A stretch of DNA of 15,371 bases from IMG/VR virus record IMGVR_UViG_2579778778_000003. The stretch is one strand, 5' to 3'. The notes below the pieces were generated by a model. That model saw only the letters and a list, made by a program, of their open reading frames with translations, made no database searches and had not been told where the DNA came from. Source of the stretch: a virus. Lineage: Duplodnaviria > Heunggongvirae > Uroviricota > Caudoviricetes. Every line of letters begins with the position of its first letter. The first letter of the stretch is position 1. Below, one piece after another: positions 71 through 10,872 of the stretch. The position numbers and the translations under genes were made by a program.

Positions 71-433
71 TTAACGACCTGCTGCGCGGAGTTTTCCGTC
101 AGGTTCACCGGCAAGAGTCAGTAATTGTCCCTGGTCTTCCTGCAGAATAGTCAGGCGACCACCGCGATTGACATACATCGGCGTTTCGGTGGTGTCTTCT
201 TCGGAAATTTTCCCGCGGTTAGTTGGGCGAACATATGAGAGTTTGTGTTTGATTTTCACACGGTTCTCATCAAACGGTTCGATTTCCAGATTGAGTGAGA
301 CCTTCCCTTTGGTTTTCGTGTTCATCACACCGGAAGCGACCTCACTGAGAACTGCGCCGATTTTGGTTTCAAATACGCCGCCGTCCAGCTCCCCGATAAA
401 TGCCTGCACATCAGTACTGCGTTCGCTAGCCAT
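71..433 (-). CDS. hypothetical prophage accessory protein, 120 aa, no family recognised
   Basis: ATG at 433 with GAGGAG Shine-Dalgarno 7 nt upstream (plus-strand ctcctc at 441-446); TAA stop at 71-73. The 175-aa track ORF is a 5' extension into the GC-rich spacer with no RBS. Hydrophilic, no TM segment, no motif recognised by eye. Confidence 0.5.
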   Translation of the reverse strand: MASERSTDVQAFIGELDGGVFETKIGAVLSEVASGVMNTKTKGKVSLNLEIEPFDENRVKIKHKLSYVRPTNRGKISEEDTTETPMYVNRGGRLTILQEDQGQLLTLAGEPDGKLRAAGR

Positions 434-482
434 TTTGCTGCTCCTCATCATATCGACCCTGCAAGGTCGGTTGGTTTCTCCA

Positions 483-569
483 CAAAACAGAGAAGAACAC
501 CTGCGGTGGCAGCCGCCCGGATGGATTGGGTTATGAGCCCGTCGTCCGGTGATGCTCTTCTCTGTTTTG
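483..569. repeat. long-range inverted repeat (caaaacagagaaga / tcttctctgttttg) enclosing a ~50-nt GC-rich loop
   Basis: Arm 483-500 is the reverse complement of arm 551-569 over 14 consecutive bases; it lies in a ~400-bp GC-rich non-coding stretch between divergent genes. Confidence 0.6.
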
Positions 570-840
570 CAAAAAAGGACGGTACCAGCCGGAAGCAAGG
601 GTACAAACTGGTACCGCCAGGACTACACACAGCATAAAGTTGTGGTGCCGGGTGCCTCCCGGTGCCTGGCGAAGGTTGCACACCAGGCGGGTGGGTGTCC
701 ACAGAAGGTCGACTGTCAGCCTCAACCTTAACCCGCGTGCGCTGAGCCGCATTCACCACAACGCTAAGGATTCTCTCTGGTTGAAAATACTTAGCTGTTA
801 TGTGCCTGCTTTTAGCCACATCAGGCGAGGTGGACCTGGT

Positions 841-889
841 TATTCCCCAACAACAAGGATTCGGTTAATCTGGATATCCCCAACAACAA
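841..889. repeat. two direct copies of TCCCCAACAACAA 33 bp apart, just upstream of the 928 ORF; candidate operator or regulatory repeats
   Basis: Exact 13-bp direct repeat at 844-856 and 877-889, each preceded by tat/ata. Confidence 0.55.
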
Positions 890-927
890 TAAGAGTATTC
901 AATGTGATCGCTGAATTAACGGCAGCA

Positions 928-1419
928 ATGACGGCTATTCGTGAAACAGCCCAGATTGCAAAACTAATGAACGAGGCAAAAACTCAAGCTGAAGTAAATG
1001 CGGCTATTGGTGAGCTGAACTCAAAGCTTGCGTCTATTCAGCGCGAATGCGTGTCTCTCGTTGAACTGGTGGGCTCTTATCAAGAAATAAATGCTTCTCT
1101 CAAAGCTAAAATTGCAGAATTCGAAAACTTTGAGGCTCAGACGGAAGGCTATATCCTTAACCAACTTGAGTCGGGTACTTTTGTATACTCGAAGGAGGTA
1201 ATCGTGAACGGTGGCAGCATAACCATGCATCTTTGCCCAAAATGTTTTGGACAAAAGATAGTATCGATACTTCAACCATTCCCGGTTAGCGAAGATGAGC
1301 TTTTTCATAAAAGCAGGTGCCTCCACTGTGAAAATAAGTTTCTGATGAATAAAAATCCGGATTACGTATCGCCTCCATCCATTGAGGAGTTGTCCAGAAA
1401 ACTTAACGGCAATCTGTAG
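928..1419 (+). CDS. hypothetical protein, ~163 aa: N-terminal predicted coiled coil plus C-terminal CxxC...CxxC zinc-ribbon-like domain
   Basis: ATG at 928 (alternative in-frame GTG at 904 with AAGAG 9 nt upstream); TAG stop at 1417-1419. N-terminal half is heptad-like and Ala/Glu/Lys/Gln-rich; C-terminal half has CPKC, 24 residues, CLHC. The upstream part of track ORF 640-1419 starts at TTG and is low-complexity, so is excluded. Confidence 0.5.
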   Translation: MTAIRETAQIAKLMNEAKTQAEVNAAIGELNSKLASIQRECVSLVELVGSYQEINASLKAKIAEFENFEAQTEGYILNQLESGTFVYSKEVIVNGGSITMHLCPKCFGQKIVSILQPFPVSEDELFHKSRCLHCENKFLMNKNPDYVSPPSIEELSRKLNGNL

Positions 1420-1544: not shown

Positions 1545-1928
1545 ATGCGTGATATTCAGATGGTTCTTGAACGTTGGGGAGCGTGGGCGGCTAATAATCA
1601 TGAAGATGTGACCTGGTCGTCCATTGCCGCCGGTTTTAAGGGATTAATTCCTTCAAAAGTAAAATCTCGCCCGCAATGTTGTGACGATGACGCGATGATC
1701 ATTTGCGGGTGCATGGCCCGTCTGAAAAAGAACAACAGCGATTTGCACGATTTATTAGTAGATTATTATGTAGTCGGTATGACATTCATGTCACTGGCAG
1801 GTAAGCATTGCTGCTCTGATGGTTATATCGGGAAAAGGTTACAGAAGGCTGAGGGCATAATTGAAGGGATGTTAATGGCATTAGATATCCGGTTAGAGAT
1901 GGATATCGTTGTTAATAACTCTAATTAA
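1545..1928 (+). CDS. quuD: late-gene antiterminator Q (QuuD / phage-82-type Q family)
   Basis: 127-codon ORF from ATG 1545 with GGAG 7 nt upstream; Cys-rich segment ([12 protein letters not shown]); sits where Q is found in DLP12-type prophages, upstream of nmpC and the lysis cassette. Identity recognised from memory of DLP12 QuuD, not verified by search. Confidence 0.75.
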
Positions 1929-2117: not shown

Positions 2118-3215
2118 TTAGAACTGGTAAACCAGACCTACAGCAACGATGTCATCAGTGCTTACACCGAGTGCTTTAGTGAAGTCATTTTTGTCAAGCA
2201 GGTTGATTTTGTAATCAACGAAAGTAGACATATTTTTGTTGAAGTAATAGGTTGCACCTACATCAACATATTTGACTAAGTCCTGATCGCCCCATACTCC
2301 AAGATCCTTACCTTTAGATTGCAGGTAAGCAACGGACGGACGCAGACCGAAATCGAACTGATATTGTGCAACAGCTTCGAAGTTTTGAGCTTTATTAGCA
2401 ACGAAGTGATCAGCAAATACAGTCATATTCTGGGTTTCAGAATAGGTAGTGGCCAGGTAAATGTTGTTAGCGTCATATTTCAGACCTGCGGCCCAAACTT
2501 CTGCATTTTTACCGGAAGCAAATACTTCAGGAAGAACTTTCCCTGCATTAACTTGAGTGTCGGTACGATCAGATTTCGCATAAGTTGCACCGATACCGAA
2601 TCCTTCGTATTCATAGGTAGCAGAGAAACCGAAGCCATCACCGTTACCTTCGGTGTAGTTATCGAAATCGCTACGATCGTTTTTGCCTTGGTACTGAGCA
2701 GCAAAGTTCAGACCATCAACCAGACCAAAGAAGTCGTTGTTACGATAGGTTGCAACACCAGTGGTGCGACCAGTCATGAACACATCTGTTTGGGTCCAGG
2801 TATCGCCACCGAATTCTGGCAGAACGTCAGTCCACGCACCGATGTCGTATGCTACACCGTAGTTACGGCCGTAATCGATTGAGCCGTAGTCACCGAATTT
2901 CAGGCCTGCAAATGCAAGACGGGTTTTGTCTTTGGAGGAACCTTGAGATTCAGCGCGGTTGCCTTTGAATTCATATTCCCACTGACCGAAACCAGTCAGC
3001 TGATCGTTGATTTGGGTTTCGCCTTTGAAGCCCAGACGAACATAAGTAGTATCACCATCATCTGCATCGTTAGAGGAAAAGTAGTGCTTGGCATTAACTT
3101 TCCCGTACAGATCCAGCTTGTTACTGTCTTTATTATAAATTTCAGCTGCCTGAGCAGACATCGCCATCAGTACTGATGCAGCTACAGCAGAAATTGCCAC
3201 TGTTAATTTTTTCAT
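2118..3215 (-). CDS. nmpC: outer-membrane general porin NmpC (OmpC/OmpF/PhoE family), full length with signal peptide
   Basis: 365-aa ORF; signal peptide [23 protein letters not shown] then AEIYNKD; C-terminal VYQF; AGGG Shine-Dalgarno upstream of ATG at 3215; matches NmpC as remembered. Confidence 0.93.
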
Positions 3216-3544
3216 CGTGAGCCCTTTTTTTTGAACTATTATTAAAAAATGATGTCACTGCGCGATAAATATTCATCTAATCAATGTGATTATTTCAAGA
3301 TGTAAGTTTTAGTTTCTCATTTAATTTGTGAAGTAGATCTCTATTTTTATCTGAACTTTTTCTATCGAAACCTATTTATGGCTCTTATTTGAACAAAAAT
3401 AAATCTATTAGCTAATTTATATTAATGGCTGTTATTTATGGTGGTTCTATAATTCGTCTGTTTAATTTAAACCGGCTAAAAATAACACTGGAAATTATTT
3501 ATTGGTTATTTGTTGAGGTTTTCTTATGTATTTGTGGTGATGTT

Positions 3545-4516: not shown

Positions 4517-4974
4517 GCAGAGTAACCGCGATTATATCCGCTCTGATTATCTGCATCATCGTCAGCCTGTCATGGGCGGTCAATCATTACCGTGATAACG
4601 CAATCGCCTACAAAGCCCAGCGCGACAAAAATGCCAGAGAACTGAAGCTAGCGAACGCGGCAATTACTGACATGCAGATGCGTCAGCGTGATGTTGCTGC
4701 GCTCGATGCAAAATACACGAAGGAGTTAGCTGATGCGAAAGCTGAAAATGATGCTCTGCGTGATGATGTTGCCGCTGGTCGTCGTCGGTTGCACATCAAA
4801 GCAGTCTGTCAGTCAGTGCGTGAAGCCACCACGGCCTCCGGCGTGGATAATGCAGCCTCCCCCCGACTGGCAGACACCGCTGAACGGGATTATTTCACCC
4901 TCAGAGAGAGGCTGATCACTATGCAAAAACAACTGGAAGGAACCCAGAAGTATATTAATGAGCAGTGCAGATAG
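4513..4974 (+). CDS. rzpD: i-spanin Rz
   Basis: GTG start at 4513 overlapping the endolysin stop; N-terminal TM helix then coiled-coil periplasmic domain; product recognised as lambda Rz ([11 protein letters not shown]...EQCR). Confidence 0.85.
4733..4915 (+). CDS. rzoD: o-spanin Rz1 lipoprotein, embedded in the +1 frame of Rz
   Basis: 60-aa ORF wholly inside Rz; lipoprotein signal with lipobox VVGC; proline-rich mature part; matches lambda Rz1. Confidence 0.85.
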
Positions 4975-5005
4975 AGCTGACCATATCGATGGGCAACTCA
5001 TGCAA

Positions 5006-10338: not shown

Positions 10339-10872
10339 CTGGCCGGAACTAATGAATTTATTGGTGAAGGTGATGCATATATTCCGCCTCATACAGGTCT
10401 GCCAGCAAACAGTACCGATATTGCACCACCAGATATTCCTGCTGGCTTTGTGGCTGTTTTCAACAGTGATGAGGCATCGTGGCATCTCGTTGAAGATCAT
10501 CGGGGTAAAACGGTTTATGACGTGGCTTCCGGCGACGCGTTATTTATTTCTGAACTCGGCTCATTACCGGAAAATGTCACCTGGTTATCCCCGGAAGGGG
10601 AGTTTCAGAAGTGGAACGGCACAGCTTGGGTGAAGGATACGGAAGCAGAAAAACTGTTCCGGATCCGTGAGGCGGAAGAAACAAAAAACAGCCTGATGCA
10701 GGTAGCCAGTGAGCATATAGCGCCGCTTCAGGATGCTGTGGATCTGGAGATCGCAACGGAGGAAGAAACCTTGTTGCTGGAAGCCTGGAAAAAGTATCGG
10801 GTGTTGCTGAACCGTGTTGATACATCAACTGCACCTGATATTGAGTGGCCTACGAACCCTGTCAGGGAGTAA
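10339..10872 (+). pseudogene. tfaD: tail fibre assembly protein Tfa, 5'-truncated (first ~14 codons replaced)
   Basis: Translation from ~10339 ([54 protein letters not shown]...EWPTNPVRE) matches lambda Tfa from residue ~15 onward; no in-frame start upstream; only an internal GTG at 10450. Confidence 0.75.

What the first reader, a model, noticed from the sequence alone, without database searches (positions are those of the whole stretch)
440..900. GC-rich non-coding segment with long-range inverted repeat, tandem CCCGGTGCCT and direct TCCCCAACAACAA repeats
ORFs are predicted in several frames here only because the high GC content removes stop codons; none has an RBS. The segment contains a 14-bp inverted repeat (483-500 and 551-569) around a GC-rich loop, a tandem duplication cccggtgcctcccggtgcct (~652-670), and two exact 13-bp direct repeats (844-856, 877-889) just upstream of the 928 ORF. 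This could be a structured regulatory RNA or long 5' UTR, an operator array for the divergent genes, or the scar of a decayed gene.
Basis: seen in the sequence. Interest (0 to 1): 0.5.

Follow-up and report, generated by a model that had tools for sequence, protein, structure and literature searches.

The report
Structured leader RNA of prophage early-left operon
The GC-rich "empty" stretch is the non-coding leader of a prophage's early-left operon, read on the minus strand: a diverged copy of the known STnc100/PasD prophage small-RNA fold, then a terminator and a second conserved long hairpin in front of yfdP. It is real and structured, but a variant of a known kind.

Summary
They belong to RNA structures on the minus strand.

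- **Main domain (759..642).** A 118-nt pseudoknotted domain matches Rfam STnc100 below threshold (40.2 bits, cut-off 47, E 2.5e-7). A model built only from canonical family members finds it at 53.9 bits (E 1.6e-10).
- **The "tandem CCCGGTGCCT".** It is a hairpin, CCGGG-AGGCA-CCCGG, inside a near-invariant 22-nt core.
- **Structure support.** Helices P1, P2 and P4 covary. A loop-to-strand pseudoknot (P3) that I did not find annotated in the Rfam model is supported at z = 16.8.
- **Downstream parts.** That repeat is a ~25-bp hairpin capped by a three-way junction. It is conserved with compensatory changes upstream of yfdP in many Enterobacterales genera.
- **Direct repeats (844-889).** They lie in a conserved divergent control region next to a gene cassette.
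- **Most likely mechanism (inferred).** The terminator attenuates the early-left operon and releases an STnc100-type, probably Hfq-binding, small RNA. Read-through transcripts carry the long hairpin as a 5'-UTR processing or translation element.

The function of the conserved domain remains unknown.

The parts
844..889 (.). Two direct repeats (844-856 and 877-889). On the minus strand they are parts of a ~20-nt unit TTGTTGTTGGGGAnnnnCCAG, 33 nt apart. They lie in the divergent intergenic block between the leader and ORF 928. The right copy overlaps the left arm (868-889) of an inverted repeat that flanks the ORF 928 cassette.
   Evidence: The same repeats and spacing occur in SfIV (L001) and Kosakonia (L191). 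No sigma70 consensus promoter was found in 350-1000.
764..794 (-). P0: a hairpin immediately 5' of the domain (CUAAGuAUUUUC ... GAGAAUcCUUAG).
   Evidence: Minimum-free-energy fold. ST64B has a hairpin of different sequence (GAUAAGAGUU / AACUCUUAUC) at the same place. Coordinates.
639..762 (-). STnc100-type structured domain.
- P1: 762-754 with 647-639.
- J1/2: AAU.
- P2: 750-735 (2 bp, bulged A, 3 bp; pentaloop UCAGC).
- P3a: 729-723, pairing with P3b 678-672 (AAGGUUG / CAACCUU, the pseudoknot).
- P4: 687-681 with 671-665.
- P5: hairpin CCGGG-AGGCA-CCCGG inside the 22-nt core 664-643.
   Evidence: Rfam RF02076: 40.2 bits, E 2.5e-7. Model R1: 74 bits. Leave-out model R2: 53.9 bits, E 1.6e-10. 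Covariation. Pseudoknot test. Coordinates.
617..638 (-). Single-stranded spacer UUUAUGCUGUGUGUAGUCCUGG. It occupies the position of the seed in PasD. The stretch UGCUGUGUG(U/A)AGUC is conserved in other genera.
   Evidence: L169, L181, L182, L188, L195, L197; ST64B has a one-base variant. PasD1 seed position from PMC8550237 supplement.
569..616 (-). Intrinsic terminator: stem CGGUACCAG / CUGGUACCG (616-608 with 588-580), then UCCUUUUUUGC (579-569).
   Evidence: ST64B has a terminator of unrelated sequence at the same place. 139 of 155 family copies have a terminator within 160 nt.
The ~25-bp stem has arms 569-546 and 506-483 and extends into the terminator's U-run. It is capped by a three-way junction with the conserved loop GGCUCAUAACCCAAUC.
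   Evidence: Fold z = -5.06. In a 12-genus alignment, the 24-pair stem has 8 pairs with compensatory changes. Present upstream of yfdP homologues in most loci examined.
431..469 (-). Small hairpin CGACCUUGCAGGGUCG (469-454), Shine-Dalgarno GAGGAG (446-441) and the yfdP start codon (433-431).
71..433 (-). yfdP (120 aa, phrog_204, function unknown), the first gene of the early-left operon in intact relatives.
928..1419 (+). Divergent cassette gene (163 aa, phrog_1244; coiled coil plus CxxC...CxxC). The truncated right arm of its flanking inverted repeat is at 1427-1439.

Best explanation
The segment 434-927 is the non-coding control and leader region of the early-left (PL-side) operon of an SfV/SfIV/PhiR49_1-type lambdoid prophage. 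It is transcribed leftward, on the window's minus strand.

**Order of parts, 5' to 3'**
1. A conserved divergent control block holding the direct repeats.
2. A small hairpin (P0).
3. A 118-nt pseudoknotted domain homologous to the 5' domain of the STnc100/EcOnc27/PasD prophage small RNAs.
4. A 22-nt single-stranded spacer.
5. A strong intrinsic terminator.
6. A ~25-bp hairpin with a three-way junction.
7. The yfdP ribosome-binding site.

**Shown**
- The anatomy, the strand and the non-coding nature.
- Homology of the domain to the STnc100 family.
- Covariation in P1, P2, P4 and the P3 pseudoknot.
- Conservation of the terminator position and of the long hairpin across genera.

**Inferred**
- The terminator acts as an attenuator. 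Most leftward transcripts stop there and yield a ~200-230-nt STnc100-type RNA. Its spacer plus terminator U-tail would act through Hfq, as in its characterised relatives.
- Expression of yfdP through int needs read-through. The factor that allows read-through is unknown.
- On read-through transcripts the long hairpin serves as a processing or translation-control element. This is by analogy with the RNase III hairpin in the lambda N leader.
- The invariant core of the domain probably binds a conserved host factor.

The confidence of 0.6 is for the whole package. The anatomy and the homology alone I would put at about 0.9, and the attenuator / small-RNA mechanism at about 0.45.
For: **Homology**
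- Rfam STnc100 aligns over the full model 1-206: 40.2 bits, E 2.5e-7.
- A model built only from canonical members hits window 759..642 at 53.9 bits, E 1.6e-10, full length.
- The 22-mer CACCGGGAGGCACCCGGCACCA is exact in more than 120 viral contigs whose flanks are otherwise unalignable.
- In copies anchored only on the 5' motif, the 17-mer is exact in 99 of 107.

**Structure**
- 96.2% of cells form pairs. Covariation score is 0.365 against 0.119 for shuffles (0 of 500 reach it) and at most 0.096 when partners are slid.
- The window's P2 (GCGGC/GCaCGC) is a fully compensated version of the canonical CCCCC/GGnGGG.
- Pseudoknot P3: mean helix 6.70 against 4.65 +/- 0.12 in 10,000 permutations, with 58 distinct helices.

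**Terminator**
- Seen in the window. 90% of family copies have one, at a median of 26 nt downstream.

**Context**
- The region lies between cI/PL and yfdP in SfIV, PhiR49_1, ST64B and mEp460. ST64B has an 815-nt gap there with no annotated gene; its sequence is.
- L080 also has a copy downstream of a cI-like repressor.

**Non-coding**
-.

**Relatives are real Hfq-associated small RNAs**
- PasD1/2: northern blots and RIL-seq, with interaction sites in the spacer and terminator part (PMC8550237).
- EcOnc27/sRNA103 overlaps STnc100 (PMC12711010).

**Long hairpin**
-.
Against: - The Rfam gathering score is not reached (40.2 against 47).
- Unlike half of the canonical copies, whose -10 hexamer ends 5-7 nt before P1, the window-type copies have no recognisable sigma70 promoter. 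A discrete small RNA is therefore not assured, and the source of transcription in this deleted prophage (no cI/PL) is unknown.
- No expression data for this locus were available.
- In Buttiauxella (L174) the domain sits 62 nt from yfdP with no terminator or long hairpin. The domain may therefore have a cis role independent of termination.
- In Kosakonia and Mangrovibacter the terminator and hairpin exist without the domain. The parts are separable modules.
- RNase III cleavage, Hfq binding and read-through control are all untested.
Confidence: 0.6

Rival explanations
1. The conserved domain is a cis-acting processive antiterminator, analogous to HK022 put RNA. It would modify the RNA polymerase that transcribes it, so that polymerase reads through the terminator just downstream and later ones. 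This would replace the N protein that these phages lack.
For: - The domain sits in the PL leader upstream of a terminator, in phages with no annotated gene between PL and yfdP (sequence; L080).
- Canonical copies start at the transcription start site, as putL does (PMC9378689).
- Near-invariant sequence across phages with very different gene content fits binding to a conserved host machine.
- Spacing to the terminator varies from 1 to 159 nt. That fits a processive mechanism, not a local alternative-pairing one.
Against: - No sequence or structure relation to put: models R1 and R2 find nothing in the HK022 immunity region, and the put sequences read look different.
- Canonical units carry strong constitutive promoters and sit, sometimes in tandem, directly upstream of lysis genes. 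Their products accumulate as terminated small RNAs in lysogens (PMC8550237). An autonomous antiterminator there would switch on lysis.
- No second copy lies in the fetched stretches to the right of cro in SfIV, PhiR49_1 or ST64B.
- ST64B has a terminator-like hairpin upstream of the domain too.
Confidence: 0.12
2. The domain is a riboswitch-like or protein-binding sensor. It would tune termination at the adjacent terminator in response to a ligand or a phage or host protein.
For: - The architecture is a multi-helix junction closed by P1, with invariant junction and loop nucleotides, variable peripheral helices and a pseudoknot. In 90% of copies a terminator follows.
Against: - The distance and sequence between P1 and the terminator are not conserved, and no alternative pairing with the terminator was seen.
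- Some copies have no terminator.
- There is no association with any metabolic gene.
Confidence: 0.08
3. The segment is a decayed or unrecognised protein-coding gene: the 123-aa minus-strand ORF 819..448, or the upstream extension of ORF 928.
For: - Open frames exist.
- RefSeq annotates a 'frameshifted hypothetical protein' there.
- Residues 82-117 match phrog_33599, a 62-position family of unknown function.
Against: - Against ST64B, none of 6 gaps is a multiple of 3, substitutions show no third-position excess (25/34/33), and stops occur in all three frames.
- No Pfam hit.
- The conservation pattern follows RNA helices, including G-U pairs that would be mismatches on the other strand.
Confidence: 0.03
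4. For 800-927 only: the direct repeats are DNA binding sites (operators or activator sites), or recombination boundaries of the ORF 928 cassette. They would control the divergent transcripts and would not be part of an RNA structure.
For: - The ~97-nt block is ~88% identical between E. coli and Kosakonia by my manual count, while the adjacent ORF is only ~50% identical in protein.
- The repeats keep their 33-nt spacing in SfIV, in front of a different gene.
- The right repeat is part of an inverted repeat that brackets the cassette.
- Phage similarity breaks at ~833 and ~887.
Against: - No consensus promoter was found.
- No candidate binding protein was identified.
- In intact phages the block would also be transcribed from PL, so an RNA role is not excluded.
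Confidence: 0.35

Closest known systems
STnc100 (Rfam RF02076), equivalent to EcOnc27 / sRNA103 of E. coli O157
   Same: - Same helices P1, P2, P4 and P5 and an identical 22-nt core.
- Followed by a spacer and an intrinsic terminator.
- Prophage-borne in Enterobacterales.
- Full-length alignment to the Rfam model. Detected by a model built only from canonical members.
   Different: - Scores below the Rfam cut-off.
- The P2 sequence is fully swapped (GCGGC instead of CCCCC).
- An extra 5' hairpin (P0) is present.
- No promoter abuts P1.
- It lies in the early-left operon leader, in front of yfdP. Canonical copies lie in the late region, after Q or after stx.
PasD1/PasD2 (EcOnc13) of EPEC E2348/69
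   Same: - Same overall plan: structured 5' domain including the P3/P4 pseudoknot (AAUGAUCGA / UUGAUCAUU), a single-stranded seed and a terminator.
- Zhu et al. 2026 already relate PasD to STnc100.
   Different: - PasD has a truncated P5 and core (GCGGGAGGCGC) and scores only 26-27 bits with my models.
- The spacer differs: the window lacks the UGUGAG seed.
- PasD is a stand-alone gene between Q and the holin gene.
Leader-derived small RNAs made by early termination in lambdoid phages (lambda 6S RNA from PR'-tR'; StxS of Stx phages). Cited from my own knowledge, not checked here.
   Same: A phage operon leader ends at an intrinsic terminator, and the short product can itself act as a regulator.
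   Different: Those come from the late promoter and are controlled by Q. No conserved pseudoknotted domain is known in them.
HK022 put RNA (PMC9378689)
   Same: A structured RNA in the leader of early operons of an N-less lambdoid phage, upstream of terminators. The sequence is highly conserved.
   Different: put is a ~70-nt two-stem RNA with no detectable similarity. The activity was not tested here, and the late-region copies argue against autonomous antitermination.
RNase III hairpin in the lambda N leader. Established knowledge, cited from memory.
   Same: A long duplex of about 25 bp lies between the leader's regulatory site and the ribosome-binding site of the first PL gene.
   Different: There is no sequence relation, cleavage is untested, and this hairpin is capped by a conserved three-way junction.

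Membership tests
Rfam RF02076 STnc100 | Covariance-model score at or above the curated gathering score (47 bits) | tested here: not met
   40.2 bits, E 2.5e-7, model positions 1-206. ST64B scores 35.1 bits.
Rfam RF02076 STnc100 | Helices P1, P2, P4 and P5 with the conserved core CACCGGGAGGCACCCGGCACCA | tested here: met
   The exact 22-mer is at 664..643. All helices can form. The leave-out model gives 53.9 bits.
Rfam RF02076 STnc100 | Intrinsic terminator shortly after the domain, giving an RNA of about 200 nt | tested here: met
   Terminator at 616..569, starting 22 nt after P1. The family rate is 139 of 155.
Rfam RF02076 STnc100 | Own sigma70 promoter placing the 5' end at P1 (stand-alone small-RNA gene) | tested here: not met
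   No promoter-like site in 350-1000. Window-type copies have none, whereas 65 of 130 copies overall have one.
Rfam RF02076 STnc100 | Discrete Hfq-associated transcript | not testable with these tools
   Known only for relatives (PMC8550237, PMC12711010).
PasD (EPEC) | Sequence of PasD1/2, including the UGUGAG seed and the short GCGGGAGGCGC hairpin | tested here: not met
   The PasD1 sequence was read. The window keeps the full P5 and has a different spacer.
HK022 put antiterminator RNA | Two-stem ~70-nt put fold and sequence | tested here: not met
   No R1 or R2 hit in L127. The put regions read are unlike the domain.
HK022 put antiterminator RNA | Makes RNA polymerase terminator-resistant in cis | not testable with these tools
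   Needs in vitro transcription or reporter assays.
Lambda-type N/nut antitermination | An N gene directly downstream of PL, with boxA/boxB nut sites | tested here: not met
   ST64B has no annotated gene in the 815 nt between cI and yfdP (sequence). YfdP has no Pfam match.
Transcriptional riboswitch | Expression platform whose terminator competes with the aptamer's closing helix | tested here: inconclusive
   The spacing to the terminator varies from 1 to 159 nt and the sequence is unconserved. No alternative pairing was noticed, but none was searched for exhaustively.
Protein-coding gene | Frame-preserving indels, third-position bias and an intact frame in homologues | tested here: not met
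   RefSeq calls a 'frameshifted' pseudogene here.

The most novel reading that the evidence does not exclude
The near-invariant, pseudoknotted four-helix domain shared by STnc100, PasD and this leader may not be a passive small-RNA scaffold. It could be a new class of phage RNA that binds a conserved host machine, such as RNA polymerase or a Nus factor, or a global RNA-binding protein. In that case it would control transcription elongation or termination, or deliver a protein to targets chosen by the variable spacer. Its presence in the early-left leader of N-less lambdoid phages would then mark a put-like, RNA-based control of early gene expression.
Probability: 0.12. Interest if true: 0.8.

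Novelty: new variant of a known kind. Interest (0 to 1): 0.45.

Why it matters
- **Prevalence.** This leader is matched in 3008 of 5426 complete E. coli genomes, and most of it (at least 80%) is present in 1324 of them. In the records inspected it carries only hypothetical-protein or pseudogene calls, or no annotation.
- **Family reach.** Placing it in the STnc100/PasD family extends that family from stand-alone late-region small-RNA genes to an operon leader on the early-left side.
- **Unexplained conservation.** The family-wide analysis shows a pseudoknot and a 17-22-nt invariant core, neither of which I found in the Rfam model or the papers read. That degree of conservation is not explained by a simple base-pairing small RNA and gives experimenters precise mutations to test.
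- **Second structure.** The yfdP-leader hairpin is a second conserved RNA structure with no Rfam match, found across Enterobacterales prophages.

Tried and rejected
- **Rfam at gathering threshold.** It finds nothing in 440-900; the only hit is IS009, elsewhere in the window. ARAGORN finds no tRNA or tmRNA.
- **HK022 put homology.** I fetched the HK022 immunity region, located putL and putR by eye and searched with both models. No hit.
- **King et al. 2011 on put-like RNAs.** The paper is not held in the library.
- **Promoter scan.** No sigma70 consensus site in 350-1000. By eye, a sigma54-like GG-N10-GC in the conserved block does not keep its spacing in other genera, so I dropped it.
- **Cis targets of the spacer.** No complementarity of 9 nt or more that looked meaningful anywhere in the window.
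- **First pseudoknot test.** Fixed windows gave only a weak contrast (7.6 against 6.2). It was replaced by the test using the model-delimited P4 loop.
- **MAFFT alignment alone.** It misaligned P4 between subtypes, so a model-based alignment was used instead.
- **Literature search for the core sequence.** No paper holds it. 'EcOnc13' also returned nothing.
- **ST64B upstream leader.** No Rfam match and a non-significant fold.
- **tRNA-like reading of the four-way junction.** Considered, but not testable here.

Full report
**1. The observation**

The window is a defective lambdoid prophage of E. coli.
- Positions 71-433 (minus strand) encode YfdP.
- 928-1419 (plus) is a small gene of unknown function.
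- 1545-1928 (plus) is a Q antiterminator (PF06530).
- A porin gene follows.

Between yfdP and ORF 928, GC rises to 0.587 against about 0.44 on both sides.
- The inverted repeat is at 483-506 and 546-569.
- The 10-nt "tandem" is at 648-667.
- The exact 13-mers are at 844-856 and 877-889.

Two further features were found: a 9-bp long-range helix (639-647 with 754-762), and a stem (580-588 with 608-616) that is followed on the minus strand by UCCUUUUUUGC.

**2. Strand and identity**

A permissive Rfam scan gives one meaningful match. It is STnc100 (RF02076) on the minus strand, 792..569, aligned over the whole model, at 40.2 bits (cut-off 47) and E 2.5e-7.

The "tandem CCCGGTGCCT" is the reverse complement of CCGGG-AGGCA-CCCGG. 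This hairpin sits inside the 22-mer CACCGGGAGGCACCCGGCACCA.

That 22-mer is exact in more than 120 IMG/VR viral contigs. These copies fall into about 34 clusters whose flanks share nothing else by blastn.

I also anchored copies on the 5' motif alone. In those, the central 17-mer is exact in 99 of 107 and has at most one change in 106. This count has a slight ascertainment bias, because loci from the first scan are included.

**3. Architecture of the domain**

Reading about 45 cluster representatives side by side gives one plan:
- P1 (RUGGUG / CACCAY), followed by AAU.
- P2: 2 bp, a bulged base, 3 bp, and a UNNGC pentaloop.
- A strand, P3a, then a variable insert ending in GCG.
- The P4 hairpin, whose loop (P3b) pairs with P3a.
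- The invariant P5 hairpin, then the 3' strand of P1.

The window has all of these (coordinates):
- P1: 762-754 with 647-639.
- P2: 750-735.
- P3: 729-723 with 678-672.
- P4: 687-681 with 671-665.
- Core: 664-643.

Its P2 (GCGGC/GCaCGC) is a fully compensated version of the canonical CCCCC/GGnGGG.

Support from covariance models:
- A model from 24 representatives finds 85 copies in 60 loci.
- On that alignment 96.2% of cells pair. The covariation score is 0.365 against 0.119 in shuffles (0 of 500 reach it) and at most 0.096 when partners are slid.
- Double changes occur in 4 of 6 P1 pairs, 3 of 5 P2 pairs and 7 of 7 P4 pairs. P5 never varies.

For the pseudoknot I used the P4 loop as delimited by the model, which is independent of P3.
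- The longest helix with the 16 nt after P2 averages 6.70.
- In 10,000 permutations of partners it averages 4.65 +/- 0.12 (z = 16.8).
- There are 58 different helices.

Many pairs are G-U, so the structure belongs to this strand as RNA.

A second model built without any window-type sequence still finds the window's copy full length, at 53.9 bits and E 1.6e-10. The domain is therefore a true homologue, although it fails Rfam's curated threshold.

**4. What the family is known to be**

STnc100 overlaps EcOnc27/sRNA103, an Hfq-binding small RNA just downstream of stx2B (PMC12711010; PMC12370729).

PasD1 and PasD2 of EPEC are abundant, and their stability was reported to depend on Hfq. They have been linked to STnc100 by structure (PMC8550237; bioRxiv 10.64898/2026.05.13.724894).

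I read PasD1 from the genome.
- It has the same plan, including the pseudoknot, but a truncated P5.
- Its RIL-seq contacts and its seed lie in the spacer and terminator part.

The papers read assign the family no function, and I saw no mention of the pseudoknot or the invariant core in the passages read. The Rfam consensus line printed shows no pseudoknot.

Across my sample:
- 139 of 155 unique copies have an intrinsic terminator within 160 nt, at a median of 26 nt.
- 65 of 130 have a sigma70-like promoter within 70 nt upstream, against 10% of control segments. In 39 of these the -10 hexamer ends 5-7 nt before P1.
- Some phages carry tandem arrays of such units between a Q-like gene and the lysis genes.

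**5. What is different here**

In intact relatives the region lies between the repressor gene/PL and yfdP. These include SfIV, PhiR49_1 (99.8% identical), ST64B and mEp460.

In PhiR49_1, PL can be read as TTGACA-N16-CATAAT with GTACC-type operators.

ST64B has no gene at all in the 815 nt between cI and yfdP.

L080 repeats the arrangement: a cI-like repressor, the domain, a terminator, then a different first gene. L012 has a copy in front of a cassette gene.

Window-type copies have no promoter at P1 and carry an extra 5' hairpin. They are leader-embedded variants.

The window's own prophage has lost cI and PL. Similarity to intact phages breaks at about 1439 and resumes before Q. What drives transcription in this copy is therefore unknown.

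**6. Non-coding**

Against ST64B (76% identity):
- None of 6 gaps is a multiple of three.
- Substitutions are spread 25/34/33 over codon positions.
- All frames have stops.
- The terminators differ completely in sequence but sit at the same place.

RefSeq only manages a "frameshifted hypothetical protein" here. Pfam finds nothing, and a PHROG of unknown function matches 36 residues.

**7.

As minus-strand RNA, 580-430 folds into a ~25-bp stem capped by a three-way junction (-60.4 kcal/mol, z = -5.06).

A scan for yfdP relatives returned 31 distinct loci, 30 of which were used, from many Enterobacterales genera and two Moraxella species.
- Most of the Enterobacterales loci examined show the same stem just upstream of the gene, always right after a U-run.
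- In a 12-sequence alignment the 24-pair stem has 8 pairs with compensatory changes. The loop GGCUCAUAACCCAAUC is conserved.
- The STnc100-type domain is present upstream in only some of these loci.
- In Buttiauxella the domain abuts yfdP without a terminator or hairpin. In Kosakonia and Mangrovibacter the terminator and hairpin are present without the domain.
- The stretch UGCUGUGUG(U/A)AGUC just before the terminator is widely kept.

**8. The direct repeats**

They are parts of a ~20-nt unit, 33 nt apart, in a block that is ~88% identical between E. coli and Kosakonia by my manual count. The neighbouring ORF has diverged to about 50% protein identity.

SfIV keeps the repeats in front of a different gene.

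The right repeat overlaps one arm of an inverted repeat, AATCTGGATATCC(C/A)CAACA, that brackets the ORF 928 cassette. The other arm is truncated in the window at 1427-1439.

This fits a divergent control region or a cassette boundary. I could not find a consensus promoter.

**9. Mechanism**

Best supported:
- The terminator attenuates leftward transcription and releases an STnc100-type RNA. Its spacer and U-tail would act through Hfq, as in PasD and EcOnc27.
- yfdP through int need read-through.
- The long hairpin acts on read-through transcripts. The analogy is the RNase III hairpin of the lambda N leader, which I cite from established knowledge.

These steps are inferred.

The put-like alternative fits the placement, the lack of an N gene and the invariant core. 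It is weakened by three points:
- There is no similarity to put.
- Promoter-bearing copies sit directly upstream of lysis genes.
- Relatives accumulate as terminated RNAs in lysogens (PMC8550237).

**10. Verdict**

This is a real, conserved, structured non-coding leader. Its main element is a leader-embedded variant of a known but functionally unexplained prophage RNA family. It is worth moderate interest, mainly because of the invariant pseudoknotted domain and the second, unmatched leader structure.

Noticed in passing
window 868-889 and 1427-1439; L168 ~3492-3514; L002 ~4972-4994: ORF 928-1419 (phrog_1244; coiled coil plus two CxxC pairs) is bracketed by an inverted repeat AATCTGGATATCC(C/A)CAACA. 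In the window the right arm is cut at about 1439. Similarity to intact phages ends there and the Q region follows, so this is the deletion junction that removed the immunity and replication genes.
   Followed up: partly
L126 3385-3672 (minus); L175 ~1060-1290; L002 ~5095-5060 (minus): ST64B and an Enterobacter prophage share a ~230-nt GC-rich leader directly after PL (GAACAGGCAGGACGCCCACGAAGUAGCCGCC ... UUCGGGAGGGG ... CCCCGCCCGAA). Its first ~35 nt also follow PL in PhiR49_1. It has no Rfam match and its fold z is only -1.1. It could be where early antitermination is set up in these N-less phages.
   Followed up: partly
L057 4382-5457 and 8382-8513; also L018, L026, L010: Tandem arrays of up to four canonical promoter-domain-terminator units lie between a Q-like gene and the lysis genes, with a further copy downstream. 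Several units have a second -10-like TAnnnT hexamer about 6 nt before P1.
   Followed up: partly
L100, L021, L032, L075 (sequences printed): Some canonical copies lack a terminator. They are followed instead by a conserved sequence CUAUGGUUAA..GUAACGG..CCUGGUAAAUCGGUAGCUCGGACUAUYAGG, possibly another RNA element.
   Followed up: no
L125 3200-3328 (minus), phage mEp460; L181 ~1070-1240: Degenerate relatives keep P1 and the GGUGAAUGCGC hairpin, but the P5 core is replaced by GCACCGGUCACCAC (21.9 and 18.6 bits). They may be decaying copies or a further subtype.
   Followed up: partly
window 10631-10829 (+): Full-length IS009 RNA family match (RF02111): 221.6 bits, E 9.9e-55.
   Followed up: no
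window 2118-3215 (-): A 365-aa OmpC/NmpC-like porin gene lies directly downstream of the Q gene, as in DLP12-type prophages. This identification is from my own knowledge.
   Followed up: no
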